Shown in pieces: positions 4,661-30,072 of a DNA stretch of 32,000 nucleotides. Under the pieces are notes generated by a model. That model searched no databases, was not told the DNA's origin, and saw only the letters and a list, made by a program, of their open reading frames with translations. Location of the stretch: positions 4,170,001 to 4,202,000 of the forward strand of contig NZ_CP011304.1 of NCBI RefSeq assembly GCF_000981785.2. Direction: 5' to 3'. Numbering within the stretch: position 1 is the stretch's first letter; each line of letters starts with the position of its first letter. This DNA is from Microcystis aeruginosa NIES-2549. Its GTDB lineage: Bacteria; Cyanobacteriota; Cyanobacteriia; Cyanobacteriales; Microcystaceae. The translations under genes and the position numbers were made by a program.

Positions 4661-4741
4661 CCCTTAATAAGGGGGGTGCCGACAATTTTTAACACCTACC
4701 TGCTTAGGTACTTAATAAAGTTGTGATTAGGAGAAAAAACG

Positions 4742-5335
4742 ATGATTGCTTTATCTAACTATAATAATCTCACTCCAGAAGAATATCTTCAGTTTGAAGA
4801 AACCAGTCTCATTAAACATGAATATATCGATGGACAAGTTTACGCCATGGCAGGGACGACGGATACTCATAATATTATCGGACTCAATTTCACTTTTATT
4901 ATTCGTAATCATTTGCGGGGTTCTGGTTGTCGAGTTTATTTTGCCGATGTGAAAGTCAGATTAGAGAAACGTAATCACTTTTATTATCCTGATATTATTG
5001 TCACCTGCGATAACAGAGATAGAGAAACCGCTACCTACAAAAGTTTTCCTAAATTGATTGTTGAAGTTCTCTCCGATTCTACAGAAGCTTTTGACAGGGG
5101 GGATAAATTTAATGATTATCAAACTCTAGAAAGTTTAGAGGAATATGTCTTAGTGAATAGTAAACACCAACGAGTGGAAACTTTTCGACGGGGTGAACAG
5201 GGTTTATGGATTCTGCAAACCTATCAGCAAGAAAGTTTTAGTTTACAGAGTATTAATCTGACGGCATCTTTTCGGGATTTATACGGGGATGTCACCCTAG
5301 AAACGGTTAATTATTCCGTGGAAGAAATAGAATAA
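4742..5335 (+). CDS. Uma2-family (DUF820) putative PD-(D/E)xK endonuclease, intact copy
   Basis: 197 aa. Typical Uma2 pattern: EEYLQFEETSLIKHEYIDGQVYAMAGTTDTHN ... YYPDIIVTC ... PKLIVEVLSDSTEAFDRGDKF..Y..L.SLEEYVLV. Its stop is 1 nt from the stop of the convergent MotB-like gene. Confidence 0.8.
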   Translation: MIALSNYNNLTPEEYLQFEETSLIKHEYIDGQVYAMAGTTDTHNIIGLNFTFIIRNHLRGSGCRVYFADVKVRLEKRNHFYYPDIIVTCDNRDRETATYKSFPKLIVEVLSDSTEAFDRGDKFNDYQTLESLEEYVLVNSKHQRVETFRRGEQGLWILQTYQQESFSLQSINLTASFRDLYGDVTLETVNYSVEEIE

Positions 5336-5336
5336 A

Positions 5337-5978
5337 TCATTGTTTTTTACCGGGGGGAATAAAACGGATTTCAATTCTGCGTCTGCTTGCATCTGCGTCA
5401 CGATTAACCGCAGCTAAGTTACCCGATGGTAGGTATAACTGTCCTGCGGAAAAAGCTCGAAATTTGACGTTTTTGAGTTTACCTGTGTTTTCGATTTCTT
5501 GGACTACTGCTAAAGCTCGCATTAATCCTAAATCAGTGTTAGAACCGGGTACTAGCATTTTAACAGATTGTTTTCTGCTGGCAACCGATTCGATATTTTT
5601 ATCGAGATTACTTGTCTTCTGTATTCCTTGTCCGTCGGTGTGTCCAATTACTTGAATAAAGTCGATTTCTCTGTCTTTGGTAATGGTTTCGATAGCGGGA
5701 ATAATGCGCTGACGAATATGGGTTTTTAAAGCAGGGTTTAATTCAGCACTTCCCGACTGAAATTTAAATTTTCCTGATTTTTCATCGATAACTATGGGGG
5801 TTGCTGTTTGCAGTTTTCGGTTAGCTTCCTCCAGTTTGCTGATGAGATTATAGGACTGAAAAAGTGCCAAGAGGAGAAATAAACTCAGAATCATGAAAGC
5901 ATTGGACATTAAATCGGTAAATGCGGGATAAACATCCACCGATTTATCTTCATCTCGGTAGTAGGTACGTCTAGACAT
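5337..5978 (-). CDS. MotB/OmpA-like (ZorB/ExbD-position) stator subunit: N-terminal TM with a conserved Asp plus an OmpA-type peptidoglycan-binding domain
   Basis: 213 aa. YPAFTDLMSNAFMILSLFLLLAL is a MotB-type plug/TM segment with Asp. The C-terminal half carries OmpA_C-like motifs: FQSGSAEL, VIGHTDGQG, NTDLGLMRALAV, RRRIEIRF. Confidence 0.75.
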   Translation of the reverse strand: MSRRTYYRDEDKSVDVYPAFTDLMSNAFMILSLFLLLALFQSYNLISKLEEANRKLQTATPIVIDEKSGKFKFQSGSAELNPALKTHIRQRIIPAIETITKDREIDFIQVIGHTDGQGIQKTSNLDKNIESVASRKQSVKMLVPGSNTDLGLMRALAVVQEIENTGKLKNVKFRAFSAGQLYLPSGNLAAVNRDADASRRRIEIRFIPPGKKQ

Positions 5979-6000
5979 AGTTACTTATATGTTGGTGAAG

Positions 6001-9000
6001 TTATTCAAATAGGGTGTTAATGTCATCCAGAACATCTTTTTGAGGAGGATTAGGGATTGTCTCACAAAGTTTTTCTATCTTATCCTTTAAGTTAGAAAAT
6101 TCAGACTGAACATCTTTTTGAGTAGGATTAGGGATTGTCTCAAAAAGGTTTTTAAGTTCTTCCAACTTCTTATTTAACTTATAAATGTCATCCTGAACAT
6201 CTTTTTGAGGAGGATTAGGGATTGTCTCAAAAAGTTCTTTAAGTTCTTCCATCTTATTATTTAAGTTAGAAAAGTCAGAACGCATATCGTTAATTTTCTC
6301 CAGTTCTGCTAAACATTTTTGAATTTCTCCATAAATATGTTCAATCATTTTCTGATTCGATTTATTTTCCTTAGCGATAACTTTCTCTAACTTATCTCGC
6401 AAAGATTCTAAGTTAGCAGTTAATTGACTGGTGTTGGTGTTCACCGCATCAATTACTTGAGAAAAATCTGATTTAAGGCTGCCAAATTGATTGGCTGTTT
6501 TCTCAATAGATTGGGAAACTGCTTTTAATTGTTCTGAGTTCTTAGTTAATTTATCATCAACTACCATCCCTAAGTTATTGCTTAAAAGGTTTAACTCAGA
6601 CTGTAAGCTTTCCTTGACTTGAGTAAGTTGCTCTGTCACTGTATCAATTAACTGAGACAAGTTAGCATTAGTCACATCGAGATTATTACTAGAGCGCTCA
6701 ATCCCATGGGAAGCTGTGAGGATTTTATCGGAGGTTTGGGAGAGTCTTTCATCGAGACTATTGATAAGTTGGTTTCCTAATTGTTTCGACTCGGAGTTAA
6801 AACTGTCTTGATAGGTTTTCACAGTTTCGATTAATTTTACTAATTCTCCCTGAATGTTAGATAACTTTTCTTGTTCGGTGACTGAGCGTTGCTGATTTTG
6901 TTCTAGGATTTTCTCAGAGACTTGAGTAAGTTGCTCTGTCACTGTATCAATTAACTGAGACAAGTTAGCATTAGTCACATCGAGATTATTACTAGAGCGC
7001 TCAATCCCATGGGAAGCTGTGAGGATTTTATCGGAGGTTTGGGAGAGTCTTTCATCGAGACTATTGATAAGTTGGTTTCCTAATTGTTTCGACTCGGAGT
7101 TAAAACTGTCTTGATAGGTTTTCACAGTTTCGATTAATTTTACTAATTCTCCCTGAATGTTAGATAACTTTTCTTGTTCGGTGACTGAGCGTTGCTGATT
7201 TTGTTCTAGGATTTTCTCAGAGACTTGAGTAAGTTGCTCTGTCACTGTATCAATTAACTGAGACAAGTTAGCATTAGTCACATCGAGATTATTACTAGAG
7301 CGCTCAATCCCATGGGAAGCTGTGAGGATTTTATCGGAGGTTTGGGAGAGTCTTTCATCGAGACTATTGATAAGTTGGTTTCCTAATTGTTTCGACTCGG
7401 AGTTAAAACTGTCTTGATAGGTTTTCACGGTTTCGATTAATTTTACTAATTCTCCCTGAATGTTGGATAACTTTTCTTGTTCGGTGACTGAGCGTTGCTG
7501 ATTTTGTTCTAGGATTTTCTCAGAGACTTGAGTAAGTTGCTCTGTCACTGTATCAATTAACTGAGACAAGTTAGCATTAGTCACATCGAGGTTATTACTA
7601 GAGCGCTCAATCCCGTGGGAAGCAGTGAGAATTTTATCGGAGGTTTGGGAGAGTCTTTGCTCAAGACGATTGATAAGTTGGTTTCCTAATTGTTTCGACT
7701 CGGAGTTAAAACTGTCTTGATAGGTTTTCACAGTTTCGATTAATTTTACTAATTCTCCCTGAATGTTAGATAACTTTTCTTGTTCGGTGACTAAGCGTTG
7801 CTGATTTTGTTCTAGGATTGTCTCAGATTTTTGATTCAAGTCAGTAATTTTTATTCCTAACTCAACCATAGTTGTCATGGAACGCTGGAAGTCTTGAGTT
7901 AAAGAAGCTAGAGATTGAGTTGATTGGTTTAACTCAGACTGTAAGCTTTCCTTGACTTGAGTAACTTGCTCTGTCACTGTATCAATTAACTGAGACAGGT
8001 TAGCATTAGTCACATCTGGATTATTACTAGAGCGCTCAATCCCATGGGAAGCTGTGAGAATTTTATCGGAGGTTTGGGAGAGTCTTTCATCGAGACTATT
8101 GATAAGTTGATTGCCTAATTGTTTCGACTCGGAGTTAAAACTGTCTTGATAGGTTTTCACAGTTTCGATTAATTTTACTAATTCTCCCTGAATGTTAGAT
8201 AACTTTTCTTGTTCGGTGACTGAGCGTTGCTGATTCTGTTCTAGGATTTTCTCAGAGACTTGAGTAAGTTGCTCTGTCACTGTATCAATTAACTGAGACA
8301 AGTTAGCATTAGTCACATCGAGGTTATTACTAGAGCGCTCAATCCCATGGGAAGCTGTGAGGATTTTATCGGAGGTTTGGGAGAGTCTTTCATCGAGACT
8401 ATTGATAAGTTGGTTTCCTAATTGTTTCGACTCGGAGTTAAAACTGTCTTGATAGGTTTTCACAGTTTCGATTAATTTTACTAATTCTCCCTGAATGTTA
8501 GATAACTTTTCTTGTTCGGTGACTGAGCGTTGCTGATTTTGTTCTAGGATTTTCTCAGATTTTTGATTCAAGTCAGTAATTTTTATTCCTAACTCAACCA
8601 TAGTTGTCATTGAACGCTGGAAGTCTTGAGTTAAAGAAGCTAGAGATTGAGTTGATTGGTTTAACTCAGACTGTAAGCTTTCCTTGACTTGAGTAACTTG
8701 CTCTGTCACTGTATCAATTAACTGAGACAGGTTAGCATTAGTCACATCGAGATTATTGCTAGAGCGCTCAATCCCATGGGAAGCTGTGAGGATTTTATCG
8801 GAGGTTTGGGAGAGTCTTTCATCGAGACTATTGATAAGTTGGTTTCCTAATTGTTTCGACTCGGAGTTAAAACTGTCTTGATAGGTTTTCACAGTTTCGA
8901 TTAATTTTACTAATTCTCCCTGAATGTTAGATAACTTTTCTTGTTCGGTGACTGAGCGTTGCTGATTTTGTTCTAGGATTTTCTCAGATTTTTGATTCAA

Positions 9001-9711
9001 GTCAGTAATTTTTATTCCTAACTCAACCATAGTTGTCATTGAACGCTGGAAGTCTTGAGTTAAAGAAGCTAGAGATTGAGTTGATTGGTTTAACTCAGAC
9101 TGTAAGCTTTCCTTGACTTGAGTAAGTTGCTCTGTCACTGTATCAATTAACTGAGACAGGTTAGCATTAGTCACATCGAGATTATTGCTAGAGCGCTCAA
9201 TCCCATGGGAAGCTGTGAGGATTTTATCGGAGGTTTGGGAGAGTCTTTCATCGAGACTATTGATAAGTTGGTTTCCTAATTGTTTCGACTCGGAGTTAAA
9301 ACTGTATTGATAGGTTTTCACGGTTTCGATTAATTTTACTAATTCTCCCTGAATGTTGGATAACTTTTCTTGTTCGGTGACTGAGCGTTGCTGATTTTGT
9401 TCTAGGATTTTCTCAGATTTTTGATTCAAGTCAGTAATTTTTATTCCTAACTCAACCATAGTTGTCATTGAACGCTGGAAGTCTTGAGTTAAAGAAGCTA
9501 GAGATTGAGTTGATTGGTTTAACTCAGACTGTAAGCTTTCCTTGACTTGAGTAAGTTGCTCTGTCACTGTATCAATATTATTACTTAAGCGGTTGACTTT
9601 TTTGGTTGACTCTTGGAGATGTTTATAGAGAGCAATTAAGACGGTGGGAAAAATAACCAAGACTAGAATTAAAAGAATCAGATAGGGAGGAAAAAGGTTA
9701 AGTAATGCCAT
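6001..9711 (-). CDS. Giant single-pass membrane coiled-coil protein made of near-identical tandem modules; its N-terminus is paralogous to the MotA-like gene at 10430-11974
   Basis: 1236-aa uninterrupted ORF. The N-terminal TM MALLNLFPPYLILLILVLVIFPTVLIALYKHLQ is about 90% identical to that of the 541-aa ORF. It is followed by 8 modules of 143/101 aa and a unique C-terminal 230 aa with 3x ETIPNP(P/T)QKDV. The MotA channel helices are absent. Confidence 0.7.
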   Translation of the reverse strand: MALLNLFPPYLILLILVLVIFPTVLIALYKHLQESTKKVNRLSNNIDTVTEQLTQVKESLQSELNQSTQSLASLTQDFQRSMTTMVELGIKITDLNQKSEKILEQNQQRSVTEQEKLSNIQGELVKLIETVKTYQYSFNSESKQLGNQLINSLDERLSQTSDKILTASHGIERSSNNLDVTNANLSQLIDTVTEQLTQVKESLQSELNQSTQSLASLTQDFQRSMTTMVELGIKITDLNQKSEKILEQNQQRSVTEQEKLSNIQGELVKLIETVKTYQDSFNSESKQLGNQLINSLDERLSQTSDKILTASHGIERSSNNLDVTNANLSQLIDTVTEQVTQVKESLQSELNQSTQSLASLTQDFQRSMTTMVELGIKITDLNQKSEKILEQNQQRSVTEQEKLSNIQGELVKLIETVKTYQDSFNSESKQLGNQLINSLDERLSQTSDKILTASHGIERSSNNLDVTNANLSQLIDTVTEQLTQVSEKILEQNQQRSVTEQEKLSNIQGELVKLIETVKTYQDSFNSESKQLGNQLINSLDERLSQTSDKILTASHGIERSSNNPDVTNANLSQLIDTVTEQVTQVKESLQSELNQSTQSLASLTQDFQRSMTTMVELGIKITDLNQKSETILEQNQQRLVTEQEKLSNIQGELVKLIETVKTYQDSFNSESKQLGNQLINRLEQRLSQTSDKILTASHGIERSSNNLDVTNANLSQLIDTVTEQLTQVSEKILEQNQQRSVTEQEKLSNIQGELVKLIETVKTYQDSFNSESKQLGNQLINSLDERLSQTSDKILTASHGIERSSNNLDVTNANLSQLIDTVTEQLTQVSEKILEQNQQRSVTEQEKLSNIQGELVKLIETVKTYQDSFNSESKQLGNQLINSLDERLSQTSDKILTASHGIERSSNNLDVTNANLSQLIDTVTEQLTQVSEKILEQNQQRSVTEQEKLSNIQGELVKLIETVKTYQDSFNSESKQLGNQLINSLDERLSQTSDKILTASHGIERSSNNLDVTNANLSQLIDTVTEQLTQVKESLQSELNLLSNNLGMVVDDKLTKNSEQLKAVSQSIEKTANQFGSLKSDFSQVIDAVNTNTSQLTANLESLRDKLEKVIAKENKSNQKMIEHIYGEIQKCLAELEKINDMRSDFSNLNNKMEELKELFETIPNPPQKDVQDDIYKLNKKLEELKNLFETIPNPTQKDVQSEFSNLKDKIEKLCETIPNPPQKDVLDDINTLFE
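6031..6235. repeat. Three copies of a 34-nt box (encodes the ETIPNPPQKDV motif) at the 3' end of the giant gene
   Basis: aacatctttttgag(g/t)aggattagggattgtctca starts at 6031, 6109 and 6196 (spacing 78 and 87 nt). Confidence 0.75.
6590..9575. repeat. In-frame tandem array: 8 units of 303 nt or 429 nt, nearly identical
   Basis: The anchor GACTTGAGTAA(G/C)TTGCTCTGTCACTG occurs at 6616, 6919, 7222, 7525, 7954, 8257, 8686, 9115 and 9544. Spacings are 303,303,303,429,303,429,429,429 nt. Confidence 0.9.
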
Positions 9712-9895
9712 GATAGTTATTGGATACCTCGAATTGTGGTTGATAGAGAGAGTTGGGGGTGAATGTTTCCTCAGATAGCTGGGGAAACATCATTAAGATT
9801 AATAAATTTTATCATTCATCAGTAGTGCTAACCTCTCCGGGTAAACTGGGTTGACTACTGTTATTGTTTGTTCCCAGTAAAGTTTGTTGCTTTTT
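9585..9895. repeat. Segmental duplicate (copy 2) of 11831-12158: the 5' end of the MotA-like gene, the spacer and the last 28 codons of the tubulin-like gene
   Basis: By eye it aligns at roughly 90-95% identity with 11831-12158. Differences include a 15-nt indel and a G5 versus G7 run. Confidence 0.85.
9812..9895 (-). pseudogene. Remnant of the 3' end of the tubulin-like gene (last ~28 codons plus stop)
   Basis: The reverse complement reads ...QQTLLGTNNNSSQPSLPGEVSTTDE*, matching the C-terminus of the 12077-15220 product (…LLGTNNNSSQPSLPAEVSTTDE*). Confidence 0.8.
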
Positions 9896-9909
9896 CAACG
9901 ATTAAACCC

Positions 9910-10419
9910 ATGATTGCTTTATATAGCTATAATAATCTCACTCCAGAAGAATATCTTCAGTTTGAAGAAACCAGTCTCATTAAACATGAATATATCGATG
10001 GACAAGTTTACGCCATGGCAGGGACGACGGATACTCATAATATTGTTTTGGGGAATATATACACAATTATTTGTAATCATTTGCGGGGGTCCGATTGTCG
10101 GGTTTATTTTGCCGATGTGAAAGTCAGATTAGAGAAACGCAATCACTTTTATTATCCTGATATTATTGTCACCTGCGATGACAGAGATAGAGAAACCGCT
10201 ACCTACAAAAGTTTTCCTAAATTGATTGTTGAAGTTCTCTCCGATTCTACAGAAGCTTTTGACAGGGGGGATAAATTTAATAATTATCAAACTCTAGAAA
10301 GTTTAGAGGAATATGTCTTAGTGAATAGTAAACACCAACGAGTGGAAACTTTTCGACGGGGTGAACAGGGTTTATGGATTCTGCCGATTTATCTTCATCT
10401 CGGTAGTAGGTACGTCTAG
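9910..10419 (+). pseudogene. 3'-truncated second copy of the Uma2 endonuclease gene, fused to antisense MotB-like sequence
   Basis: 9910-10384 parallels 4742-5216, with the protein identical except around residues 45-55. After ...GEQGLWIL the frame runs into the reverse complement of the MotB-like start (PIYLHLGSRYV*). The TTG-initiated extension from 9868 in the ORF track is tubulin-remnant sequence. Confidence 0.75.
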
Positions 10420-10423
10420 ACAT
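10385..10423 (-). pseudogene. 13-codon 5' remnant of a MotB/OmpA-like gene
   Basis: The reverse complement encodes MSRRTYYRDEDKS, identical to 5940-5978. Its ATG lies 6 nt after the stop of the MotA-like gene. The rest of the gene is deleted. Confidence 0.8.
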
Positions 10424-10429
10424 AGTTAC

Positions 10430-11974
10430 TTAGAATGGTTTTTTGATACTATCAGATACTTGATTGATTTCTTTTTCCATCTCAGATAAAAAAGAATTTT
10501 TCTGTTGATTGCTAAGGTTAATAATTTGGTTTAAGATGGCTTGTATATCTCTGAGATAACTGACTGTTTGCTGACTTTTCTCAGCAATAATTTCTCCTTG
10601 ATAATTATTACGGCCAACTTCTTGAGAAATTAATCGACTTAACCGGTCACCTAAAGCAGTTAATTGGTCTGAGTTATTGTTAATATTGTGAGTAGTTTCT
10701 AATAAGTTGTTTTGGATTGACTGAAGAGAAATAAGTAGTTGTTCAGTCCTTTCATTGAGAACAATGTTTAAATTTTGACTTTCTTTACGAATTGATAGAG
10801 AAGACTGTCCTAAATTTTTAATTTCCGCTTCTACGCTTACCAAGCTTTTGAAAGTATTATGAACATTATCTGTTGCTTGACTCATCAATTTAGTTAAACT
10901 ATCTATATGTTCCACTGTTAGACATAACTTAGCATGAGTAGAATATAACTTTTCAGAAGTTGCGACTAAATTATCAGTAACTTGACTATTAACTAATTTA
11001 TCAACTGTCGATTTAAAGTTACTAATGCAGTTATCCAAACTCTGACCATATTTAACAAAGTTTTCGTGGTGAATTGCTTTATATAATTTGTTGACATTTT
11101 CTTCAAAACTATTGGTAGAACTCTTAAAAGTCGTCGCACCGGTAGATAAAGTTCCTGCGGTTTCAGTTAATCTTTCACAAACCTGAGTGACTAATTTAGC
11201 AGTTTCCTGATTACCATCATCAATTTTTTTAGCAACTTTCTCTAAAGAAGATTCTAATACTCTCGTCACCTCATTATGAAAGTTAGTCAGAAATGCTTGC
11301 TGTGTATCCACCATGCGATTAACCGCTTTATCCAAGCGACTATTCCCTTCTACAGTCGGCTGCAAGATATTATCTAAATAGTCTTCTAGGGAACTAATTA
11401 GATTTACTTTAGCAAGGTTGGTATTAAAGATTAAGTTAATCACAGTCAGCAAAGAACTACAAGCTAAACCAATTAAGCTAGTGATAAAAGCAATCCCCAT
11501 GCTTTCTAGGGGAGTTTTGAGCTTTTCTCCTAAACTTTGCAAATCGACATTATTAATATCGATAAGTGTGCTGATTCCCGTCAGATTGAGAGTAATTCCG
11601 AAGAAAGTTCCCAACAAACCAAAAGCGAGGAGGAGATTGGGTAACACTCTTACAAAATAATCCCATTTTTCGCAACTGAGAGATTTAGACATGAAAGTAA
11701 ATTGTTCTTCATGGTATAAACCATCTACCAAAGCTGCGGTATTAACATCATCTAGTTGACTACTGGCTATCTTAAATCTATTCTCTAGATTAGAGATAAT
11801 TTTAGGTTGAACCCCGCGACTTTCTCCCCGAATTAAGCGCTTGACTTTTGCAGTTGAATCTTGGAGATGTTTATAGAGAGTCATCCGGATTCTCACAGCT
11901 AAGACGGTGGGAAAAATAACCAAGACTAGAGTTAAAACAATCAGATAGGGGGGAAAAAGGTTAAGTAATGCCAT
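10430..11974 (-). CDS. MotA/TolQ/ExbB-family proton-channel protein with a ~330-aa C-terminal coiled-coil tail (ZorA-like architecture)
   Basis: TM1 is LFPPYLIVLTLVLVIFPTVL. The channel signature is LLLAFGLLGTFFGITLNL ... SMGIAFITSLIGLACSSLLTVINLIF (compare ExbB/TolQ GLFGTVWGI ... GIAEALIATAIGL). A long heptad-rich tail follows. I chose the start at MALLNLF (11974) because the paralogue at 9711 starts there; the ORF is also open to 12055. Confidence 0.75.
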   Translation of the reverse strand: MALLNLFPPYLIVLTLVLVIFPTVLAVRIRMTLYKHLQDSTAKVKRLIRGESRGVQPKIISNLENRFKIASSQLDDVNTAALVDGLYHEEQFTFMSKSLSCEKWDYFVRVLPNLLLAFGLLGTFFGITLNLTGISTLIDINNVDLQSLGEKLKTPLESMGIAFITSLIGLACSSLLTVINLIFNTNLAKVNLISSLEDYLDNILQPTVEGNSRLDKAVNRMVDTQQAFLTNFHNEVTRVLESSLEKVAKKIDDGNQETAKLVTQVCERLTETAGTLSTGATTFKSSTNSFEENVNKLYKAIHHENFVKYGQSLDNCISNFKSTVDKLVNSQVTDNLVATSEKLYSTHAKLCLTVEHIDSLTKLMSQATDNVHNTFKSLVSVEAEIKNLGQSSLSIRKESQNLNIVLNERTEQLLISLQSIQNNLLETTHNINNNSDQLTALGDRLSRLISQEVGRNNYQGEIIAEKSQQTVSYLRDIQAILNQIINLSNQQKNSFLSEMEKEINQVSDSIKKPF

Positions 11975-12158
11975 GATAGTTATTGGATACCTCGAATTGT
12001 GGTTGATAGAGAGAGTTGGGGGGGTGAATGTTTCCTGAGATAGCTGGGGAAACATTATTAAGATTGCTCAATTTTATCATTCATCAGTAGTGCTAACCTC
12101 TGCGGGTAAACTGGGTTGACTACTGTTATTATTTGTTCCCAGTAAACTTTGTTGCTTT
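11831..12158. repeat. Segmental duplicate (copy 1) matching 9585-9895
   Basis: See 9585-9895. It spans the tubulin-like stop (12077), the spacer and the first ~45 codons of the MotA-like gene. Confidence 0.85.
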
Positions 12159-15100
12159 TGCTGTTGTTTTTCGAGTTTTTTCTGTTCACCAGTACGTTTT
12201 TCTAGTTCCATTTTCAGTTGATTAACAAAACGGGTGATAATTCCTTCTTTTGCCTCCTGTTGAGTATTTCCATCTTGTCCAGCTACCTTATCTTTGTAGC
12301 GATAATTGGGGTGATAGGAGGGTAAATTTTTGACATTGTTGACAAAATAGCTGACGTTCTGGAAATAATCACCCTCGTTAGTAAATAATAGGGTAGGATT
12401 AGCCAAAATCTCATTTTTTGCCTGATTAAGCAGTATCTGCAAAGCATTAATCATGTCATTACGAGAAGCAAATTGTTCTAAGGCAAGTCGCCAATTACCG
12501 CTAATGTCAATGATGGACTTATTGTTAAATAAATCGCCTTCGATGACTAATTGATAAGTATCATCTTCCTCATCGTATTCTAGTAAACCGAGAGCAATTG
12601 CGGGATAGAAAATAAACTCTAATTCCTCAATTAATTTGGCAGGTGGTGGAATAATATCAGCAAAATCTATCCTGTAATCATTGTGTAAAATGCTGATTCT
12701 TTTTTGGTCTTGATAGATTTGTTGCAACCCAGATAAATCAGTAATGATTCTTAGGGGAAACCCACCAAACTCGTAGGTAATTAGGATTTCTTCGTCGGTT
12801 TGAATTGATTTAAAAGAAGTTCCCTTAATATTTAAATCAGATTCAAGAGTCTTCATAAATCTTTGCATGGTGGGTGAATTATCATCCTTAGTCCCAATTA
12901 GTAATGCTTTATCTGTATGCAAGCGATAGTAAGCATCATTAACATTTATCGGTAACATTAAATCAGCTTCTCGCAGAATTTGCGCCAAGCGTTCAGGAAA
13001 ATCATGGGGTTTATATTGACCCATAAATCGCTTAATTACTGCATCAATTTTATTAGTGCTTACTGATTGAAACTGTTTCTCGATTGTAGCTGTTAGAGTC
13101 TCTTTGAGAGTCTCATTATCAATAACAAAAGATTGGCTAAATAAACTGAATAGGGAAGCATTATAGCCTAAATTATTGGTGACTTTTTGGCTAACGGAAA
13201 TGTATTGAGTTCGGGAGTTACTGTCCGGGATACAGTTATCAATATTCTCCTCTGGAAAAATACCTTCCCCAGTCATCTCGTCGAGATTTAACTGCATTAA
13301 CTCCTGTTCGTATTTATCGTATTCTGTGATTAGCTGATATAGGGATTCTTTCAGTTGTTGTATCTGCAGCATTCGACTGGAAATATGCTTGAGAATCGCT
13401 TCAACAATCTTTCTAGATTCGCGATTGATACTGAAATTAAAGTTCTGCTGAATTAATTTTTGTCCGCTTTGAACGTAGTCTCTTAACTCAGCTTTGATTC
13501 TCTCACTATTGGCATTTTTATTGAACATCTTGAAGACAGACTTTTTCCCGTTTATATCTTCGAGAGTTTGTTTAACATTTCGCCAAATGTTATCAATTTT
13601 TTCCGAGGAATGAAACCCTTTATTATCCTGAGATAATTCCTCTAGATTCCCCTTGTAGGTATTAATCTGTACTTGTAAAGCGACCAAAAAAGATAGGCTA
13701 TTTTCCAAAGAAAATTCTAAGCTATCAGGATTAAGAAGAATCTCCAAAAATTGGTCAATATCTGACTTAAATTTTTCGATTAATTTAGGTTGAGTTTGTT
13801 GGGTCAGAGTTAACCAGATTCCACGACTGCTATCCGTTTCTCCCCCCTGTACTTTGCGAAACTCTTTTTCTAGGGATTGCTTGACGGTTTGGGGTAAATT
13901 CTCCAAATCTTGACTATTGGATATTTCTTCCTCTAGGGAATTTTTCCAAGAGGTTAAAGTCTTGGAAAAAGTTTTATTATTCTCTAGGGTTGCTTCTTCC
14001 AATCTGGCAGTAAAATAATCCTTATTACTTTGGGTACTCCAATTAGCTAGGAACTTACTTAATAACTCTTGTCCACTGGGACTTTGACCATATCCCTCTA
14101 ACCAAAATTTAATTAATTTGAGACTAAAACGATTGAGACCAATCTGCACAATTCGGTCGCGAGTAAAATAAATCCTCGCTAGTCCAAAGGACATATAACC
14201 TTGACACATCTGAAAAGGATGATTATCTTTACGAATCATCGGGTCTTTATAGTTATCCCGATTGCTTTTGATGGGGAGAGATAACTCATCGGCAAAATCC
14301 AAGAAAATCTTGTAAGCAATGACATTACATAATTTACCTTTGTTATTAATCCGGTAATCTCCCGCAGTGCGATTAGAAACTAAGTAGGCAAAATCAAAAG
14401 GAGAACGTTTTTCATCGATGTGGACGAAATTTTGTTTATCATAACAGGCTTGAAAGGAATTACTTTCATTGGTATAATGATCTAACTCTTTCAAAGCTGC
14501 ATAGGTATTAGCTCTCATAATTGCCCCATCACCATAAAGTTTAGGACTAATTACCAAATAACCAAAGGATGTATATTCGGCCGTTTGTTGTAAAATATGA
14601 CGCAAAGTGTAGGCCACATCGAGGAAAATACCGCTACCAGTTCCCCCACACAAAGAACCGACAACAAAGACATTTAAACCCTCTTGGACATTAAAACTTT
14701 GACCGTTAACTTTACCGCTAAACATAAAGGATTCATGACCAGAAGTTCGTCTTTCCGCTGCTTCAATTGCCTCCTGAATTTTTTGATAGTTATGGAAGAA
14801 AGCTAAACGACCGACGGGACGAATACCTCCCGCACCATTTTCAATGGCAGTTATTTGTTTTTTTAGTCTTGGGTCTAACCAGCTTTCAATATGGGAAAAG
14901 GGACTTTCAAAAAGGGTTTTGTGTTCAAGTTCATAGGTGAGATTGTTAACATCCTGAGCATTCATATTAATGAATACTCTTTCAGCAGCTGATAGAAGAA
15001 TTTCTTCTCCGTGATAGCTATTTCCTGTGGGTAAACCCGAACCATTGAAAGCGTTTTTGTCTGTGTCAATATGAACAAAACTGACAACGGGTAGGTTAGA

Positions 15101-15220
15101 TAACTTCCCATACTTATCAATAATAAAGCGACGAATTCTCATTAACACATCTCGACCAGTACCACCTAATCCGATGATAATTGTCCGTTTGATAGCGCGG
15201 GTTTGACTGGTGTTAGCCAT
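12077..15220 (-). CDS. Large tubulin/FtsZ-superfamily GTPase (Pfam Tubulin_2 / FtsZl-1-like) with a ~700-aa C-terminal extension
   Basis: 1047 aa. T1-type loop TIIIGLGGTGRDV at residues 13-25. Tubulin signature GGTGSG in VFVVGSLCGGTGSGIFLDVAY. The C-terminal two thirds are helical/coiled-coil and end in a Q/K-rich low-complexity tail. AGGAG lies about 10 nt upstream of the ATG. Confidence 0.8.
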   Translation of the reverse strand: MANTSQTRAIKRTIIIGLGGTGRDVLMRIRRFIIDKYGKLSNLPVVSFVHIDTDKNAFNGSGLPTGNSYHGEEILLSAAERVFINMNAQDVNNLTYELEHKTLFESPFSHIESWLDPRLKKQITAIENGAGGIRPVGRLAFFHNYQKIQEAIEAAERRTSGHESFMFSGKVNGQSFNVQEGLNVFVVGSLCGGTGSGIFLDVAYTLRHILQQTAEYTSFGYLVISPKLYGDGAIMRANTYAALKELDHYTNESNSFQACYDKQNFVHIDEKRSPFDFAYLVSNRTAGDYRINNKGKLCNVIAYKIFLDFADELSLPIKSNRDNYKDPMIRKDNHPFQMCQGYMSFGLARIYFTRDRIVQIGLNRFSLKLIKFWLEGYGQSPSGQELLSKFLANWSTQSNKDYFTARLEEATLENNKTFSKTLTSWKNSLEEEISNSQDLENLPQTVKQSLEKEFRKVQGGETDSSRGIWLTLTQQTQPKLIEKFKSDIDQFLEILLNPDSLEFSLENSLSFLVALQVQINTYKGNLEELSQDNKGFHSSEKIDNIWRNVKQTLEDINGKKSVFKMFNKNANSERIKAELRDYVQSGQKLIQQNFNFSINRESRKIVEAILKHISSRMLQIQQLKESLYQLITEYDKYEQELMQLNLDEMTGEGIFPEENIDNCIPDSNSRTQYISVSQKVTNNLGYNASLFSLFSQSFVIDNETLKETLTATIEKQFQSVSTNKIDAVIKRFMGQYKPHDFPERLAQILREADLMLPINVNDAYYRLHTDKALLIGTKDDNSPTMQRFMKTLESDLNIKGTSFKSIQTDEEILITYEFGGFPLRIITDLSGLQQIYQDQKRISILHNDYRIDFADIIPPPAKLIEELEFIFYPAIALGLLEYDEEDDTYQLVIEGDLFNNKSIIDISGNWRLALEQFASRNDMINALQILLNQAKNEILANPTLLFTNEGDYFQNVSYFVNNVKNLPSYHPNYRYKDKVAGQDGNTQQEAKEGIITRFVNQLKMELEKRTGEQKKLEKQQQKQQSLLGTNNNSSQPSLPAEVSTTDE

Positions 15221-15237
15221 GGTTTAAATCTCCTGAG

Positions 15238-16362
15238 TTATTTTTTGCTAATCTGAATTTGTAGGTCGAAATCTTGATGGTTATGGTGATAGGTTAAAGT
15301 CAGGTAATTTTTATCTATCTTCACCTCCTGAGTTAGTTGATTACCTCGATAAAAAATCTCTGCTTGTTTACTGGGTTTCAGATATAACTGATTGCCGCGT
15401 CTTTCTAAATAGCAGCGAATTTCTTCCCCAGCACGAGAAAAGGTATTCTTCTTATGTTCTTCACCACCGATGTTAATTTTTCCAGATGTTTTTAAAATAT
15501 ATTTTTGGGTTTCATCTTCATCATCATTAGAGGAGACTTCAATAGTCCAAGCAGTATTTAACAGCAACCAGTGACGAATTCCCAAAATACTCGCTACTAT
15601 TCCCCCAATTCCCATTAATGTAATTACCAATGCTGGCAACCATAACTGACTCAAGAGATAAGGATTAATCAAACAGGTTTCTTGTCCTCCCGGTGCGGGA
15701 GTACAAAACTCTTGTGCTGTGGGAGCAATATCGACAACTGATAGTTGATATTTATTGCCGTTAGTGGCGGTAATTTCTTGGGTTCTTAGATTAATTGGTA
15801 GGGAATTAAGCCAGTTTTGTCTCTCCAAACTTTCGGGAGAATCAGCAAGACGAAAAGGGCTATTTTTTGGGGTTTCTATCCACTGTTGGGAAGTAATCCC
15901 CGCGCCAGTAGAAAGGGGTGCATCGGTAATCCAAACTACCGACTGGGGTTTGATAGCTTGATTGGCAGTTAAACGACACTGATTTAAGCGTGCCAGTCGG
16001 GGATAAACGTGCCATTCTGCTTGCTGAATATCGGTATTTTTAGCACTTTGGCTAGATTGCCAGGGAATCGCCTTTAAAACCGCGTCTATATCTTCCTGAC
16101 TCCGAATTAAAATCGGTTCTGCAATCGGTTGAACATTATCAGCAAAGGGGAATAAATAAACGGAATCGTTATTTTTTAAACTATCGCGAATAATTTGACC
16201 GAGGCGCGTGCGTCCTTCATCATTAAAGTTAACACTACCGGTAAGATCGATCGCTAGGATAACATCTCGTCCCTGCCAACGAGCCACCAAATCTAATCCG
16301 AGTTTTTGCCAATCAGTAAGCGGTTCCCCGGGGGATACCGTTAAACATTCAGCACTTTTCAT
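15238..16362 (-). CDS. vWA-domain protein with a central TM helix and a C-terminal beta-rich (degenerate FHA-like) domain
   Basis: 374 aa. The MIDAS-like start of a vWA fold is VILAIDLTGSVNFNDEGR ... SVYLFPFADNV ... VVWITDAPL. The TM is LWLPALVITLMGIGGIVASILGI. The tail YILKTSGKINIGGEE...IRCYLERRGNQLYLKP...IFYRGNQL resembles an FHA topology but lacks the canonical R/S/H residues. The stop is 17 nt before the tubulin-like start. Confidence 0.65.
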   Translation of the reverse strand: MKSAECLTVSPGEPLTDWQKLGLDLVARWQGRDVILAIDLTGSVNFNDEGRTRLGQIIRDSLKNNDSVYLFPFADNVQPIAEPILIRSQEDIDAVLKAIPWQSSQSAKNTDIQQAEWHVYPRLARLNQCRLTANQAIKPQSVVWITDAPLSTGAGITSQQWIETPKNSPFRLADSPESLERQNWLNSLPINLRTQEITATNGNKYQLSVVDIAPTAQEFCTPAPGGQETCLINPYLLSQLWLPALVITLMGIGGIVASILGIRHWLLLNTAWTIEVSSNDDEDETQKYILKTSGKINIGGEEHKKNTFSRAGEEIRCYLERRGNQLYLKPSKQAEIFYRGNQLTQEVKIDKNYLTLTYHHNHQDFDLQIQISKK

Positions 16363-20359: not shown

Positions 20360-20698
20360 TTATGGCTCTGATTCTAGGTTAAACTCAATCCGGCTCTGTA
20401 AAACCATTTCTGCAATTACCGCTCCTCCTTTACCTTGAGCTAAAACCCGCTCAAAACGGTTGATTAATTCGGGAATATTGATCACTTCCTCTACCGATTC
20501 TAGATATCTTTCGACAATTGCCCTGATCTTGTATCTTATCTTAGCTTGCTCCGCAACTTTTTCTAAAATTTCCTCGCAAGTCTGCTCGGTTTTAACCACA
20601 AAAGTAATGGGATATTTTTGCACTTTATCAATATCTAAAAAATATTTATCAGCAGCTATCGTTTCCGTAACTTGAAAAAATCGACCTAGGGGTTTCAT
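20360..20698 (-). CDS. ORF fragment: probable C-terminal part of the adjacent restriction endonuclease (split gene or pseudogene), otherwise hypothetical
   Basis: 112 aa with no recognisable family on its own. It is in the same frame as 20756-21478 and is separated from it only by one TAA plus 19 sense codons. Confidence 0.45.
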   Translation of the reverse strand: MKPLGRFFQVTETIAADKYFLDIDKVQKYPITFVVKTEQTCEEILEKVAEQAKIRYKIRAIVERYLESVEEVINIPELINRFERVLAQGKGGAVIAEMVLQSRIEFNLESEP

Positions 20699-20755: not shown

Positions 20756-21478
20756 TTATTCAGAGTTTAAGCGATCAGGCGACCATCCCCAATATATTTT
20801 CTGTTCCCCATAATACTCTTTAAGAATTGCATAACTGACAATCTCAAAAACTCTAGCATCAATGTTTGGTCTGAGTAAACTCCGAATAAATTCAATGGCT
20901 TTCTGGGGATCTTGCTGTTGAATATCAATCATCTGTTGACAATAGCTGATAAATTGATTAAATGCTTTTTGTCTTGTTTGCACATAGGCATCAATTATAT
21001 CTATAATCACTGGCGCAATATTAACTTGATTACCCTCTAGATAAAACTTAATTAGATTCTCATTAATCCAGTATCTATTGGTTTTAACATCTCTAATTAT
21101 CGGCAGATAAGATAAGGTGGGAAAATACTTGTTAAATTCCTGATTTAATCGATGATTGAGAGCATGATTTTGTAATTTATTGCCAAAAGGAAGCTCCCTT
21201 TGCCTGCGAAAAAGTGTCATATACTGAGCGCCTTGATACTCGTCGTATCCATCCTTAAGATGAAACTCATTATTAATATAGTCTTCCACTAAAACATAAA
21301 TTGCATAATGGTTAGCCAATCCTGCTCGGGATTTAGAACCTCGATTAGCAGCTCTAGTTTTAATGTTCAAATATTGCAATAACTCACTAGCATTTAAAAT
21401 ACTATTTCCCTGATTAGGAAAGTAATTATCGATAATTTTAATAATTATCTTGGTGAATTCATGCTTTACTATCGACAT
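20756..21478 (-). CDS. Putative type II restriction endonuclease, N-terminal fragment (ends inside an Mrr-like PD-(D/E)xK core)
   Basis: The start at MSIVKHEF (21478) overlaps the upstream methyltransferase stop by 20 nt. The C-terminus ...DARVFEIVSYAILKEYYGEQ... resembles the first helix of Mrr-type nuclease domains. The role assignment is mainly positional. Confidence 0.5.
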   Translation of the reverse strand: MSIVKHEFTKIIIKIIDNYFPNQGNSILNASELLQYLNIKTRAANRGSKSRAGLANHYAIYVLVEDYINNEFHLKDGYDEYQGAQYMTLFRRQRELPFGNKLQNHALNHRLNQEFNKYFPTLSYLPIIRDVKTNRYWINENLIKFYLEGNQVNIAPVIIDIIDAYVQTRQKAFNQFISYCQQMIDIQQQDPQKAIEFIRSLLRPNIDARVFEIVSYAILKEYYGEQKIYWGWSPDRLNSE

Positions 21479-22352: not shown

Positions 22353-22561
22353 TTTTTTAATTTAAAGTAGTTAGATTTTTACTAGGAAATGTCTCAATTT
22401 TTAACCTCCTTAGCGATTAGGATAATTGACAGACTTTATCATAAATATGAAGTATAACCTAATTTGGTATTGATGACCGACTTCTGACGACAGACTCCCC
22501 ACAACAAAAACTTGGATTTTTAAGCCTTTAAATATTTTAATATGAGTCAGTATCCCGCAGT

Positions 22562-24097: not shown

Positions 24098-24170
24098 TCT
24101 CCTCCTGTCTCCTATCTCCTGTCTCCTGACTCCTCACTAACCACGACAATTTTTGATTTTTGCAGGAGAT
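24098..24170. repeat. Composite intergenic element: a CT-rich heptamer tract plus a 23-nt box that abuts a TAG stop
   Basis: tctcctc ctgtctc ctatctc ctgtctc ctgactc (period 7) is followed by aatttttgatttttgcaggagat (24148-24170), directly next to the ABC transporter stop. A sister element lies at 30004-30072. Confidence 0.65.
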
Positions 24171-30003: not shown

Positions 30004-30072
30004 CTCCTGACTCCTGACTACTGACTACTGACTCCTAATCAACTGGAATAATTTTTGATTTTTACAAGAGGT
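30004..30072. repeat. Composite intergenic element: a heptamer tract plus a 23-nt box that abuts a TAG stop (sister of 24098-24170)
   Basis: ctcctga ctcctga ctactga ctactga ctcctaa is followed by aatttttgatttttacaagaggt (30050-30072), directly next to the SbtB-like stop codon. Confidence 0.65.

What the first reader, a model, noticed from the sequence alone, without database searches (positions are those of the whole stretch)
6590..9575. Eight near-identical in-frame tandem modules (303 or 429 nt) build a 1236-aa membrane-anchored coiled coil
The anchor GACTTGAGTAA(G/C)TTGCTCTGTCACTG occurs at 6616, 6919, 7222, 7525, 7954, 8257, 8686, 9115 and 9544. Spacings are 303,303,303,429,303,429,429,429 nt, giving modules of 101 or 143 aa. 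The long module equals the short one plus a 42-aa insert (KESLQSELNQSTQSLASLTQDFQRSMTTMVELGIKITDLNQK). Copies differ by only a handful of substitutions (Y/D, L/V, NNL/NNP, S/R, SLDE/RLEQ). Identity this high over 2.9 kb implies very recent expansion or ongoing concerted evolution by unequal recombination. Given the neighbouring ZorA-like tail, a length-variable coiled coil anchored by one TM could act as an adjustable spacer or ruler. Alternatively it could be a rapidly diversifying surface or interaction module. The region is also a prime candidate for assembly collapse or expansion.
Basis: seen in the sequence. Interest (0 to 1): 0.75.

Follow-up and report, generated by a model that had tools for sequence, protein, structure and literature searches.

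The report
Motor-less ZorA-like tail gene, repeat-expanded
The eight near-identical repeats are real and lie in a Microcystis gene that is a cut-down copy of a Zorya-like membrane motor protein: it kept only the membrane anchor and the long helical tail, and one tail segment, present one to three times in other strains, is present eight times here.

Summary
Nine anchors with spacings of 303 or 429 nt give eight in-frame modules (95-100% identical) inside an intact 1236-aa ORF (6001-9711, minus strand).

The organism is Microcystis. The normal orthologue is a 718-738-aa ZorA-like protein (TM1, MotA/ExbB-type channel domain, long cytoplasmic helical tail). It sits in a conserved cyanobacterial operon: vWA-like, Tubulin_2 (FtsZl1), ZorA-like, ZorB-like. 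Its tail carries this module once. In 118 homologue clusters the count is 1 (92), 2 (25) or 3 (1).

The window gene lacks roughly 500 codons of the normal gene: the cytoplasmic domain, TM2, TM3 and the proximal tail. TM1 is fused in frame to the distal tail, so the protein cannot form the proton channel.

The array grew through two in-frame duplication registers, one with a TTAAACC microhomology junction. The locus is a rearranged tandem of two alleles; a second, intact ZorA-like gene lies upstream and has lost its own zorB.

The same TM1-tail fusion occurs in four metagenome contigs with two or three modules, there without any motor, tubulin or vWA gene.

Most likely it is a tolerated remnant whose tail length drifts by unequal recombination. 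A functional tail-only "ruler" is not excluded. Copy number needs long reads.

The parts
6001..9711 (-). A1: 1236-aa ORF consisting of ZorA-like TM1, an eight-module helical tail and the C-terminal tail tip. It has no MotA/ExbB channel domain.
   Evidence: ORF. Homologues. PADLOC ZorA profiles match only their tail positions.
9631..9699 (-). The single hydrophobic segment (aa 5-27, NLFPPYLILLILVLVIFPTVLIA), homologous to TM1 of the canonical ZorA-like protein. It is followed by a 15-nt in-frame deletion relative to the canonical sequence (AVRIRMT becomes IA).
   Evidence: Region 9637-9759 is 98% identical to 11900-12022.
9577..9585 (-). Deletion junction: 9 nt of filler (AGTAATAAT, encoding SNN) joins codon 42 of the 5' region to the last 11 codons of a module. 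The join is in frame.
   Evidence: Homology to the A2 5' end stops at 9585 and homology to the module starts at 9576.
6616..9543 (-). The tandem array (aa 57-1032, 976 aa). Cores: M1 9115-9417, M2 8686-8988, M3 8257-8559, M4 7954-8256, M5 7525-7827, M6 7222-7524, M7 6919-7221, M8 6616-6918. The 42-aa L-register segments lie at 9418-9543, 8989-9114, 8560-8685 and 7828-7953.
   Evidence: Junction analysis.
6067..6277 (-). A second, smaller repeat at the tail tip: an 87-nt (29-aa) unit of the form ...ELKxLFETIPNPxQKDVQ..., with three FETIPNP motifs here.
   Evidence: Tandem Repeats Finder, repeat families D8 and D12. The motif occurs 0-5 times among homologues and 5 times in L081.
5337..5978 (-). 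ZorB/MotB-like protein (213 aa). It has a TM segment containing FTDLMS (an Asp at the position typical of MotB/ExbD/ZorB) and an OmpA-like peptidoglycan-binding domain. It is the only intact zorB-like gene in the locus.
   Evidence: Pfam OmpA hit, E 5.8e-5, 23.8 bits, below the 27.2-bit gathering score. PADLOC ZorB1, E 2.2e-9. NCBIfam hits are weak MotB/OmpA-type matches only.
4742..5335 (+). Uma2-family gene, the full copy at the right-hand end of the duplicated cassette.
   Evidence: Pfam Uma2, E 9e-41. PADLOC PDC-S03.
9712..9894 (-). Copy of the region upstream of the ZorA-like gene, including the last 83 nt of the tubulin-like gene. It is a remnant with no intact gene.
   Evidence: Region 9585-9894 is 89% identical to 11833-12159. 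Sequence read.
9904..10384 (+). Uma2', a second Uma2 copy truncated at its 3' end.
   Evidence: 94% identical to 4736-5216. Pfam Uma2.
10384..10432 (-). Remnant of a second zorB: its first 40 nt plus the spacer and the A2 stop codon, 100% identical to 5939-5987. About 723 bp (the rest of zorB and the Uma2 3' end) are deleted.
   Evidence: The same junction lies in an independent assembly (L085, GCA_031545115.1), which is 98.6% identical and ungapped across it.
10430..11974 (-). A2: an intact ZorA-like protein (514 aa from MALLN; the ORF finder extends it to 12055). It has TM1, a cytoplasmic domain with a beta-hairpin, TM2 and TM3, and a roughly 300-aa tail of a rare, divergent allele.
   Evidence: PADLOC ZorA1, E 2e-16. 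NCBIfam antiphage_ZorA_2, 38 bits. The AlphaFold2 model's best PDB matches are ZorA chains. The tail allele is rare.
12077..15220 (-). Tubulin_2 (FtsZl1-family) protein, 1047 aa.
   Evidence: Pfam PF13809, E 2.8e-99. Makarova and Koonin 2010 (PMC2875224).
15238..16362 (-). 374-aa membrane protein, the first gene of the operon. It occupies the position of the vWA-domain protein of FtsZl1 operons and carries a DLTGS motif, but has no Pfam hit.
   Evidence: No family hit. It is conserved directly upstream of the Tubulin_2 gene in most cyanobacterial loci.

Best explanation
The array is a copy-number-variable stretch of the cytoplasmic helical tail of a ZorA-like stator protein.

Shown:
- In most Microcystis strains one 718-738-aa gene encodes TM1, a MotA/ExbB-type channel domain and a tail of about 500 aa. 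That tail carries this 101-aa module once.
- The gene belongs to a conserved cyanobacterial operon: vWA-like, Tubulin_2/FtsZl1, ZorA-like, ZorB-like.
- In this genome the array-bearing gene (A1) lacks roughly 500 codons of the normal gene: the cytoplasmic domain, TM2, TM3 and the proximal tail. TM1 is fused in frame to the distal tail.
- The module is amplified to eight copies through two in-frame registers. The 303-nt register has the junction ...TQV|SEK.... The 429-nt register has the junction ...SELN|QSTQ..., formed at a TTAAACC microhomology.

Inferred:
- After the founding duplications, RecA-type unequal crossing-over or replication slippage between units 95-100% identical adds or removes 101 or 143 residues at a time. 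That corresponds to roughly 14 or 20 nm of helix per step. The reading frame is never broken, because both unit lengths are multiples of three.
- A1 has lost the helices that contact ZorB and form the proton path, so it cannot act as a motor.
- It is most likely a tolerated remnant of a recombination-prone, island-like locus, and its tail length drifts neutrally. The working stator, if there is one, would be the upstream intact A2 paired with the single zorB that now lies behind A1.
For: Array:
-.

Identity of the gene:
- All 118 homologue clusters are from Microcystis or unnamed metagenome samples.
- Every full-length homologue starts MALLNLFPPYLI and carries the LLAFGLLGTFxGI channel motif.
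- Modules per protein are 1 (92 clusters), 2 (25) or 3 (1).
- A1 shares only codons 1-42 and the distal tail with them.

Junctions:
- The L-register units join at a TTAAACC microhomology that is present on both sides in the canonical gene.

Locus rearrangement:
- 4736-5216 is 94% identical to 9904-10384.
- 5939-5987 is 100% identical to 10384-10432.
- 9585-9894 is 89% identical to 11833-12159.
- The A2/zorB-remnant/Uma2' junction recurs in an independent assembly.

ZorA-like nature of the family:
- PADLOC ZorA and ZorB profile hits and NCBIfam ZorA subfamily hits.
- The six best PDB matches of the A2 model are ZorA chains, followed by TolQ, ExbB and PomA.
- The operon is conserved across cyanobacteria, with ZorA-like proteins of about 450-800 aa.

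Remnant reading:
- The same TM1-tail fusion, with the same 25-nt junction, lies in four metagenome contigs with 2-3 modules.
- In those contigs a CHAT-STAND-TPR cassette replaces the vWA, tubulin and motor genes. The fusion gene there has no channel partner nearby.
- One of these copies (L084) carries a 2-nt gap that shifts the frame.
- The locus also decays in other strains: IS insertions in L006 and truncated forms in L007-L010.
- No sigma-70-like promoter was found directly upstream of A1.
Against: - The ORF is intact over 3.7 kb.
- Two independent non-repeat indels (the 15-nt deletion and the large deletion with its 9-nt filler) are both in frame. The chance of that is about 1/9, if each indel independently has a one-in-three chance of preserving the frame.
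- The fusion keeps the native topology: TM1 N-out, tail in the cytoplasm.
- The fusion allele persists in at least two genomic contexts.
- Growth from three or fewer modules to eight runs against the usual bias of tandem repeats toward contraction.
- zorB, the only copy, lies directly behind A1 with a 22-nt gap, so A1 is probably still transcribed.
- dN/dS could not separate selection from neutrality. The alleles are mosaics that exchange sequence with functional canonical genes.
Confidence: 0.55

Rival explanations
1. A1 is a functional tail-only subunit. It is anchored by TM1 and forms a long helical bundle reaching roughly 165-180 nm into the cytoplasm. It acts either alone or co-assembled with the A2 motor. 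Copy number tunes how far the ZorAB-like/tubulin-like system reaches.
For: - The ORF is intact, both non-repeat indels are in frame, and the cytoplasmic topology is preserved.
- Tail length matters in Zorya: all ZorA tail truncations abolish defence (PMC11946911).
- Copy number is polymorphic.
- The only zorB lies immediately downstream of A1.
- The amphipathic periodicity is strong throughout the tail: power 258 against a shuffle 95th percentile of 79.
Against: - A1 lacks TM2, TM3 and the cytoplasmic domain that hold a ZorA pentamer around ZorB.
- The tails of A1 and A2 are only about 23% identical, so mixed bundles are doubtful.
- In L081-type strains the fusion gene exists without any motor, tubulin or vWA gene.
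- The L084 copy is frameshifted.
- There is no evidence of expression.
Confidence: 0.28
2. The copy number or unit order is an assembly artefact: the array was expanded, collapsed or mis-ordered. The true gene has fewer or more modules.
For: - The units are 95-100% identical over 2.9 kb.
- Short-read contigs from other samples end inside this array (L001, L083, L086).
- All other assemblies show three modules or fewer.
Against: - Seven of the eight cores are distinct, differing by 1-16 nt in combinations also seen in other strains. That is not what a looped graph traversal produces.
- There are no indels or frame breaks across 3.7 kb.
- The window assembles through several other repeats contiguously.
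Confidence: 0.1
3. It is an extracellular or surface-exposed interaction module that diversifies rapidly, or a methyl-accepting chemotaxis protein as databases annotate its homologues.
For: - The protein has a single N-terminal hydrophobic segment.
- Sources name homologues 'methyl-accepting chemotaxis protein'.
Against: - The anchor is homologous to ZorA-like TM1. In ZorA the C-terminal end of TM1 is cytoplasmic, and basic residues (KHLQESTKKVNR) follow it here.
- The residues are conserved and only the copy number varies.
- No MCPsignal or HAMP domain is found in Pfam.
Confidence: 0.03

Closest known systems
ZorA of the Zorya anti-phage system (EcZorA; PDB 8QYD, 8QYK; Hu et al. 2024, PMC11946911)
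   Same: - The family has the same layout: TM1, a cytoplasmic domain with a beta-hairpin, TM2 and TM3, then a very long cytoplasmic helical tail.
- It is paired with a ZorB-like protein that has an OmpA-type domain.
- ZorA profiles and ZorA structures are the best matches.
- The tail periodicity of about 3.6 fits the non-heptad, right-handed bundle modelled for ZorA.
   Different: - A1 itself has no channel domain.
- Scores are below NCBIfam cut-offs.
- No zorC, zorD, zorE, zorF or zorG is present. The partners are a Tubulin_2 protein and a vWA-like protein.
- The A1 tail is about 1190 aa, against about 507 aa in EcZorA.
- No anti-phage role has been shown.
Canonical Microcystis orthologue (for example P0089, PCC 9432, 738 aa; locus L004, M. 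ichthyoblabe FBCC-A1114)
   Same: - Same 5' 42 codons, same module, same distal tail (99.1% nt identity over 324 nt to L004) and the same downstream zorB-like gene.
   Different: - The canonical gene has the channel domain and one module (two in 25 clusters, three in one).
- None of the canonical genes has the 429-nt register duplicated.
FtsZl1 (Tubulin_2) operons of Makarova and Koonin 2010 (PMC2875224)
   Same: - A Tubulin_2 gene preceded by a vWA-type gene and associated with an OmpA-family protein.
   Different: - That paper does not mention MotA (0 occurrences) and describes the OmpA-like partners as membrane transport or beta-barrel proteins.
- Here the OmpA-like partner is a ZorB/MotB-like stator subunit with a ZorA-like partner.
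Length-variable repeat proteins shaped by unequal recombination (streptococcal M proteins; the YscP and FliK 'molecular rulers'). This comparison rests on my own knowledge and was not tested here.
   Same: - In-frame tandem units, and copy number that differs between strains.
- An elongated helical protein whose length scales with copy number.
   Different: - No measured dimension depends on this protein.
- It is cytoplasmic and derived from a stator subunit.

Membership tests
Zorya ZorA (anti-phage ZorAB motor subunit) | MotA/ExbB/TolQ-type channel helices TM2 and TM3 that surround ZorB | tested here: not met
   A1 goes from TM1 (aa 5-27) straight into the tail. The LLAFGLLGTFxGI motif, present in every full-length homologue, is absent from it. 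PADLOC ZorA profiles align to A1 only at their tail positions. The neighbouring A2 does meet this feature.
Zorya ZorA (anti-phage ZorAB motor subunit) | Long cytoplasmic alpha-helical tail | tested here: met
   PADLOC ZorA tail matches, E 3.5e-24. Hydrophobic period of 3.58-3.60, far above shuffles. Only one Pro in the 976-aa array. The low-confidence model is all-helical.
Zorya ZorA (anti-phage ZorAB motor subunit) | Score above the curated NCBIfam ZorA cut-off | tested here: not met
   A1: antiphage_ZorA_3, 31 bits against a cut-off of 250. A2: antiphage_ZorA_2, 38 bits against 100. Canonical P0089: 33 bits against 500.
Zorya system (types I-III) | zorAB accompanied by zorC/zorD, zorE, or zorF/zorG | tested here: not met
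   PADLOC gives no hit for the two other operon genes. They are a Tubulin_2 protein and an unassigned vWA-like protein.
Zorya system (types I-III) | Adjacent ZorB with a TM aspartate and a peptidoglycan-binding domain | tested here: met
   Gene 5337-5978: FTDLMS in the TM segment. The Pfam OmpA match (23.8 bits) is below the 27.2-bit gathering score. PADLOC ZorB1, E 2.2e-9.
FtsZl1 (Tubulin_2) membrane-associated operon (Makarova and Koonin 2010) | FtsZl1/Tubulin_2 gene in the same operon | tested here: met
   PF13809, E 2.8e-99. The gene order is conserved in most cyanobacterial loci examined.
FtsZl1 (Tubulin_2) membrane-associated operon (Makarova and Koonin 2010) | vWA-domain protein encoded next to FtsZl1 | tested here: inconclusive
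   The 374-aa upstream protein is syntenic across cyanobacteria and has a DLTGS motif. It has no Pfam, NCBIfam or PADLOC hit.
Methyl-accepting chemotaxis protein (the database name of the homologues) | MCP signalling domain (PF00015), with or without HAMP | tested here: not met
   No such Pfam hit for A1 or for P0089. The name appears to come from coiled-coil-like composition.
Copy-number-variable in-frame tandem-repeat protein | Unit length a multiple of three, and unit number polymorphic among related strains | tested here: met
   Units of 303 and 429 nt. Counts of 1, 2 or 3 modules in homologues, 3 and 2 in the fusion alleles L081 and L082, and 8 here.
Molecular ruler | A cellular dimension scales with protein length | not testable with these tools
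   This needs genetics and imaging.

The most novel reading that the evidence does not exclude
A1 is a working, membrane-anchored, tail-only paralogue of a Zorya-like motor. It forms a helical filament of roughly 170 nm whose length is reset in 14- or 20-nm steps by recombination. It cooperates in trans with the short-tailed A2-ZorB motor and the tubulin-like/vWA proteins. On this reading, Microcystis populations carry a natural series of tail lengths for a Zorya-like machine whose output is a cytoskeletal GTPase rather than a nuclease.
Probability: 0.13. Interest if true: 0.7.

Novelty: new variant of a known kind. Interest (0 to 1): 0.4.

Why it matters
The array alone is an ordinary product of unequal recombination, so it is only a modest curiosity. 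Its context is more useful.

- **Tail-length variation.** Microcystis strains carry a ZorA-like tail with 1, 2, 3 or 8 copies of a 101-aa module, plus 0-5 copies of a 29-aa tip repeat. Hu et al. showed that ZorA tail integrity is essential, so this natural series could be used to test how tail length affects such motors.
- **An undescribed pairing.** Many cyanobacteria couple a ZorAB-like stator to a Tubulin_2/FtsZl1 protein and a vWA-like protein instead of nucleases. I found no paper describing this. The 2010 FtsZl1 paper noted only 'OmpA-like' partners.
- **Practical points.** Homologues are mis-named 'methyl-accepting chemotaxis protein'. The array breaks short-read assemblies.

Tried and rejected
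- **Exact-sequence look-ups** of A1 and ZorB found nothing. This genome's proteins are not in that collection.
- **Exact search for the 429-nt-register junction** in metagenomes found nothing. The reason emerged later: the related fusion alleles have GAT (Asp) where the window has GAG (Glu) at the junction. That zero is therefore not evidence of absence.
- **Sequence search of A2 against the PDB** gave only a weak match, E 0.57, to a MotA/TolQ/ExbB chain. The fold comparison was needed instead.
- **dN/dS on the non-repeat tail** rests on only 3-15 differences per pair. The window allele is closer to a canonical gene (99.1%) than to the other fusion alleles (97.5%). The alleles are therefore recombinant mosaics and the ratio says nothing about selection on A1.
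- **Single-sequence AlphaFold2 of A1 residues 1-586** gave pLDDT 44.5. I used it only as weak support for 'all helical' and did not run a fold search on it.
- **The promoter and terminator scan** gave no promoter-like site directly upstream of A1. It gave a terminator-like hit inside every module on the non-coding strand, which is a repeat echo.
- **Very long ZorA-like tails in Prochloron-type loci** turned out not to exist. The gaps between the A and B genes there hold inserted genes.
- **Rejected readings:** an SMC/Rad50 relationship (only low-scoring coiled-coil-type hits) and a methyl-accepting chemotaxis protein (no signalling domain).
- **Literature searches** linking Zorya with tubulin-like proteins or with Microcystis returned nothing.

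Full report
**1.

- The 26-nt anchor occurs at the nine stated positions, with none expected by chance.
- Tandem Repeats Finder finds periods of 303 and 429 nt with 97-99% matches and no indels.
- The 300-nt copies are 95-100% identical.
- The array lies in an intact minus-strand ORF, 6001-9711, of 1236 aa.
- In protein order the units are L L L S L S S S. S is a 101-aa core. L is the same core preceded by 42 aa.
- Among the eight cores, 21 of 303 nucleotide columns vary, 9 non-synonymous and 12 synonymous.
- M7 and M8 are identical. M3 and M6 differ from them by 1-2 nt. M4 and M5 differ from the rest by 7-16 nt.

**2. What the gene is**

- A ZorB-based scan of genomes and a protein search place the window in Microcystis.
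- The 118 homologue clusters are all from Microcystis or unnamed metagenome samples.
- Every full-length homologue begins MALLNLFPPYLI.
- Each carries a MotA/ExbB-type channel motif (LLAFGLLGTFxGI...AFITSLIGL) and ends in a long helical tail. Typical length is 718-738 aa.
- In these proteins the module occurs once (92 clusters), twice (25) or three times (1; P0001, 1033 aa).
- None has the 42-aa segment repeated.
- The window protein shares only its first 42 codons and the distal tail with them.
- After ...KVNRL the sequence jumps, through 9 nt of filler (AGTAATAAT), to the last 11 codons of a module.
- The domain between TM1 and TM2, TM2 and TM3 themselves, and the proximal tail are all missing.
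- A separate 15-nt in-frame deletion lies just after TM1.
- I call this gene A1.

**3. How the array was built**

- In the canonical gene (L004) the order is...TTDLN | QSTQSL...DLNQK (aa 433-465) | module (466-566) | KESLQSELN | LLSNN....
- The 303-nt register joins ...TEQLTQV to SE(K/T)ILEQ.
- The 429-nt register joins ...KESLQSELN to QSTQSL. The canonical gene has TTAAACC on both sides of this join, so the founding event was microhomology-mediated.
- Once two copies exist, homologous unequal exchange between nearly identical units can add or remove 101 or 143 residues without breaking the frame. This step is an inference.
- Divergence within the array (0-16 nt) overlaps divergence from modules of other strains (4-16 nt).
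- Nearly all amino-acid variants (SETIL, QRLV, RLEQ, NNP, TEQV) also occur in canonical alleles.
- The array is thus a mosaic of older variants and very recent copies.

**4. The locus is a rearranged tandem of two alleles**

- Three segment pairs show the duplication:
  - 4736-5216 is 94% identical to 9904-10384 (the Uma2 gene).
  - 5939-5987 is 100% identical to 10384-10432 (the first 40 nt of zorB plus the spacer).
  - 9585-9894 is 89% identical to 11833-12159 (the 5' end of the ZorA-like gene, its upstream spacer and the last 83 nt of the tubulin-like gene).
- Reading along the minus strand, the gene order is:
  1. vWA-like
  2. Tubulin_2
  3. A2, an intact ZorA-like gene
  4. a 40-nt zorB stub
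  5. a truncated Uma2' on the opposite strand
  6. the tubulin 3' remnant
  7. A1
  8. zorB
  9. Uma2
- The A2 tail (aa 310-541) is a rare allele. Only two fragmentary clusters match it.
- One complete genome, BLCC-F210 (L006), has the A2-type gene directly before zorB. There it is interrupted by an IS element.
- The junction of the A2 3' end, the zorB stub and Uma2' is reproduced in an independent NCBI assembly (L085). That contig is 98.6% identical and ungapped across the junction.

**5. The fusion gene is not unique to this genome**

- An exact search for the 25-nt A1 junction found four JGI metagenome contigs.
- L081 encodes a 663-aa protein with the same TM1-tail fusion, three modules and five tip repeats.
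- L082 encodes a 562-aa version with two modules. L083 ends inside the array.
- L084 has a 2-nt gap that shifts the frame.
- In these contigs zorB follows, as it does here.
- Upstream, a CHAT-STAND-TPR protein (1287 aa) and two small genes replace the vWA-like, tubulin-like and motor genes, next to the same GntR gene.
- In those strains the fusion gene therefore has no channel partner in the locus.
- L081, L082 and L084 are identical in the non-repeat tail, so they represent one lineage.

**6. The system**

- A2 matches PADLOC ZorA profiles (E 2e-16).
- The 213-aa protein matches PADLOC ZorB profiles (E 2e-9). Its Pfam OmpA match is 23.8 bits, below the 27.2-bit gathering score.
- NCBIfam ZorA subfamilies are hit below their cut-offs.
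- An AlphaFold2 model of A2 was built with a 96-sequence alignment. Mean pLDDT is 73.8, and 85-97 over residues 1-210.
- The model shows TM1, two short helices, a beta-hairpin, TM2 and TM3.
- Its six best PDB matches are ZorA chains, followed by TolQ, ExbB and PomA.
- The order vWA-like, Tubulin_2, ZorA-like, ZorB-like recurs in most of the roughly 70 non-Microcystis cyanobacterial loci examined. ZorA-like proteins there are about 450-800 aa.
- This is the FtsZl1 operon of Makarova and Koonin (PMC2875224). Its 'OmpA-like' partner can now be read as a ZorB-like stator subunit.
- It is not a Zorya system by composition, because no zorC to zorG genes are present.

**7. Physical nature of the tail**

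- The hydrophobic periodicity of the A1 tail peaks at 3.58-3.60 residues. Power is 258, against a shuffle 95th percentile of 79, and is about 2 at period 3.50.
- This indicates an amphipathic helix with a non-heptad register. It is compatible with the right-handed pentameric bundle modelled for ZorA.
- The 976-aa array contains only one proline.
- The single-sequence model of residues 1-586 is unreliable (pLDDT 44.5). It is helical, with short recurring breaks.
- In EcZorA about 507 tail residues span about 70 nm (PMC11946911). Scaling from that, A1's roughly 1190 tail residues would span about 165-180 nm, and each unit about 14 or 20 nm. These figures are an inference.
- In ZorA, TM1 is peripheral and the domain following it is cytoplasmic. 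The TM1-tail fusion therefore keeps the tail in the cytoplasm.

**8. Function**

- A1 cannot form the ion path or grip ZorB, because TM2 and TM3 do both in ZorA.
- Evidence for a remnant:
  - The fusion exists without any motor gene in L081-type strains.
  - One copy is frameshifted.
  - The locus decays in several strains.
  - No promoter-like site lies directly upstream of A1.
- Evidence for retained function:
  - The ORF is intact over 3.7 kb.
  - Two non-repeat indels are both in frame.
  - The native topology is preserved.
  - The only zorB is transcriptionally downstream of A1.
  - The array has expanded rather than contracted.
- dN/dS cannot decide between the two, because the alleles exchange sequence with canonical genes.
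- My estimates are about 0.55 for a tolerated remnant, about 0.28 for a functional tail-only protein, and about 0.1 for a wrong copy number in the assembly.

**9. Verdict**

- The finding is a real repeat array with a clear origin.
- It is a new variant of a known kind: a ZorA-like tail whose copy number varies by unequal recombination.
- It is of moderate interest, mainly as a natural tail-length series and as a pointer to an undescribed pairing of a ZorAB-like stator with a tubulin-like GTPase in cyanobacteria.

Noticed in passing
window 5337-16362; loci L011-L080: A four-gene operon (vWA-like, Tubulin_2/FtsZl1, ZorA-like with a long tail, ZorB-like) is conserved across many cyanobacterial orders. 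It links a Zorya-type 5:2 stator fold to a tubulin-like GTPase instead of nucleases. I found no paper describing this pairing. The 2010 FtsZl1 paper noted only 'OmpA-like' partners.
   Followed up: partly
window 6067-6277 (aa about 1145-1236 of A1): A second repeat lies at the tail tip: a 29-aa unit of the form ...ELKxLFETIPNPxQKDVQ.... The FETIPNP motif count varies from 0 to 5 among Microcystis homologues, with 3 here and 5 in L081. The tail tip is where ZorA is thought to meet its partners, so this may be a variable docking site.
   Followed up: partly
L081 3520-9400; L083 2297-7531: In strains that carry the motor-less fusion gene alone, the space between GntR and Uma2 holds a 110-aa ORF, a 1287-aa CHAT-STAND(NACHT/AAA_16)-TPR protein and a 324-aa zinc-ribbon protein. 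This looks like a defence-type cassette replacing the vWA, tubulin and motor genes, which suggests the site is a variable island.
   Followed up: partly
L006 (Microcystis sp. BLCC-F210) 5428-9338: The A2-type ZorA-like gene is split by an IS630-like transposase, and the tubulin-like gene is cut by an ISL3-like transposase. This is another decayed state of the same locus.
   Followed up: partly
L007-L010 (Microcystis MAGs and Microcystis sp. T1-4): The ZorB-like gene matches only from residue 43 onward (94% identity), and only fragments of the vWA-like and tubulin-like genes lie kilobases away. This is a further rearranged form of the locus that I did not resolve.
   Followed up: no
window 4742-5335 and 9868-10419; L003 10647-11854: Uma2-family genes (PADLOC candidate PDC-S03) flank the cassette and occur as tandem pairs in other strains. 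They are the likely homology tracts for the rearrangements.
   Followed up: partly
L084 about 401-722: A 2-nt gap relative to all other alleles shifts the frame of the fusion gene in this metagenome contig. It is either a true pseudogene or a sequencing error.
   Followed up: no
homologue annotations: Sources name this family 'methyl-accepting chemotaxis protein', 'SbcCD ATPase subunit' or 'Smc'. No MCP, SMC-head or Rad50 domain is detectable, so the names appear to be coiled-coil artefacts.
   Followed up: yes
L057 (Prochloron didemni) 7057-7719 and 9971-10648: Two ZorB-like genes lie downstream of one ZorA-like gene, a separate duplication in another lineage.
   Followed up: no
window 24102-24134 and 30004-30036: Two short heptanucleotide arrays (CTCCTGT x4.7 and CTCCTGA x4.7) lie in intergenic positions about 5.9 kb apart. 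Their meaning is unknown.
   Followed up: no
window 20756-23953: An N6/N4 DNA methylase (21459-22352) and a C5 cytosine methylase (22562-23953) lie next to two unassigned ORFs (20360-20698 and 20756-21604, the latter overlapping the methylase gene). This may be a restriction-modification cluster.
   Followed up: no
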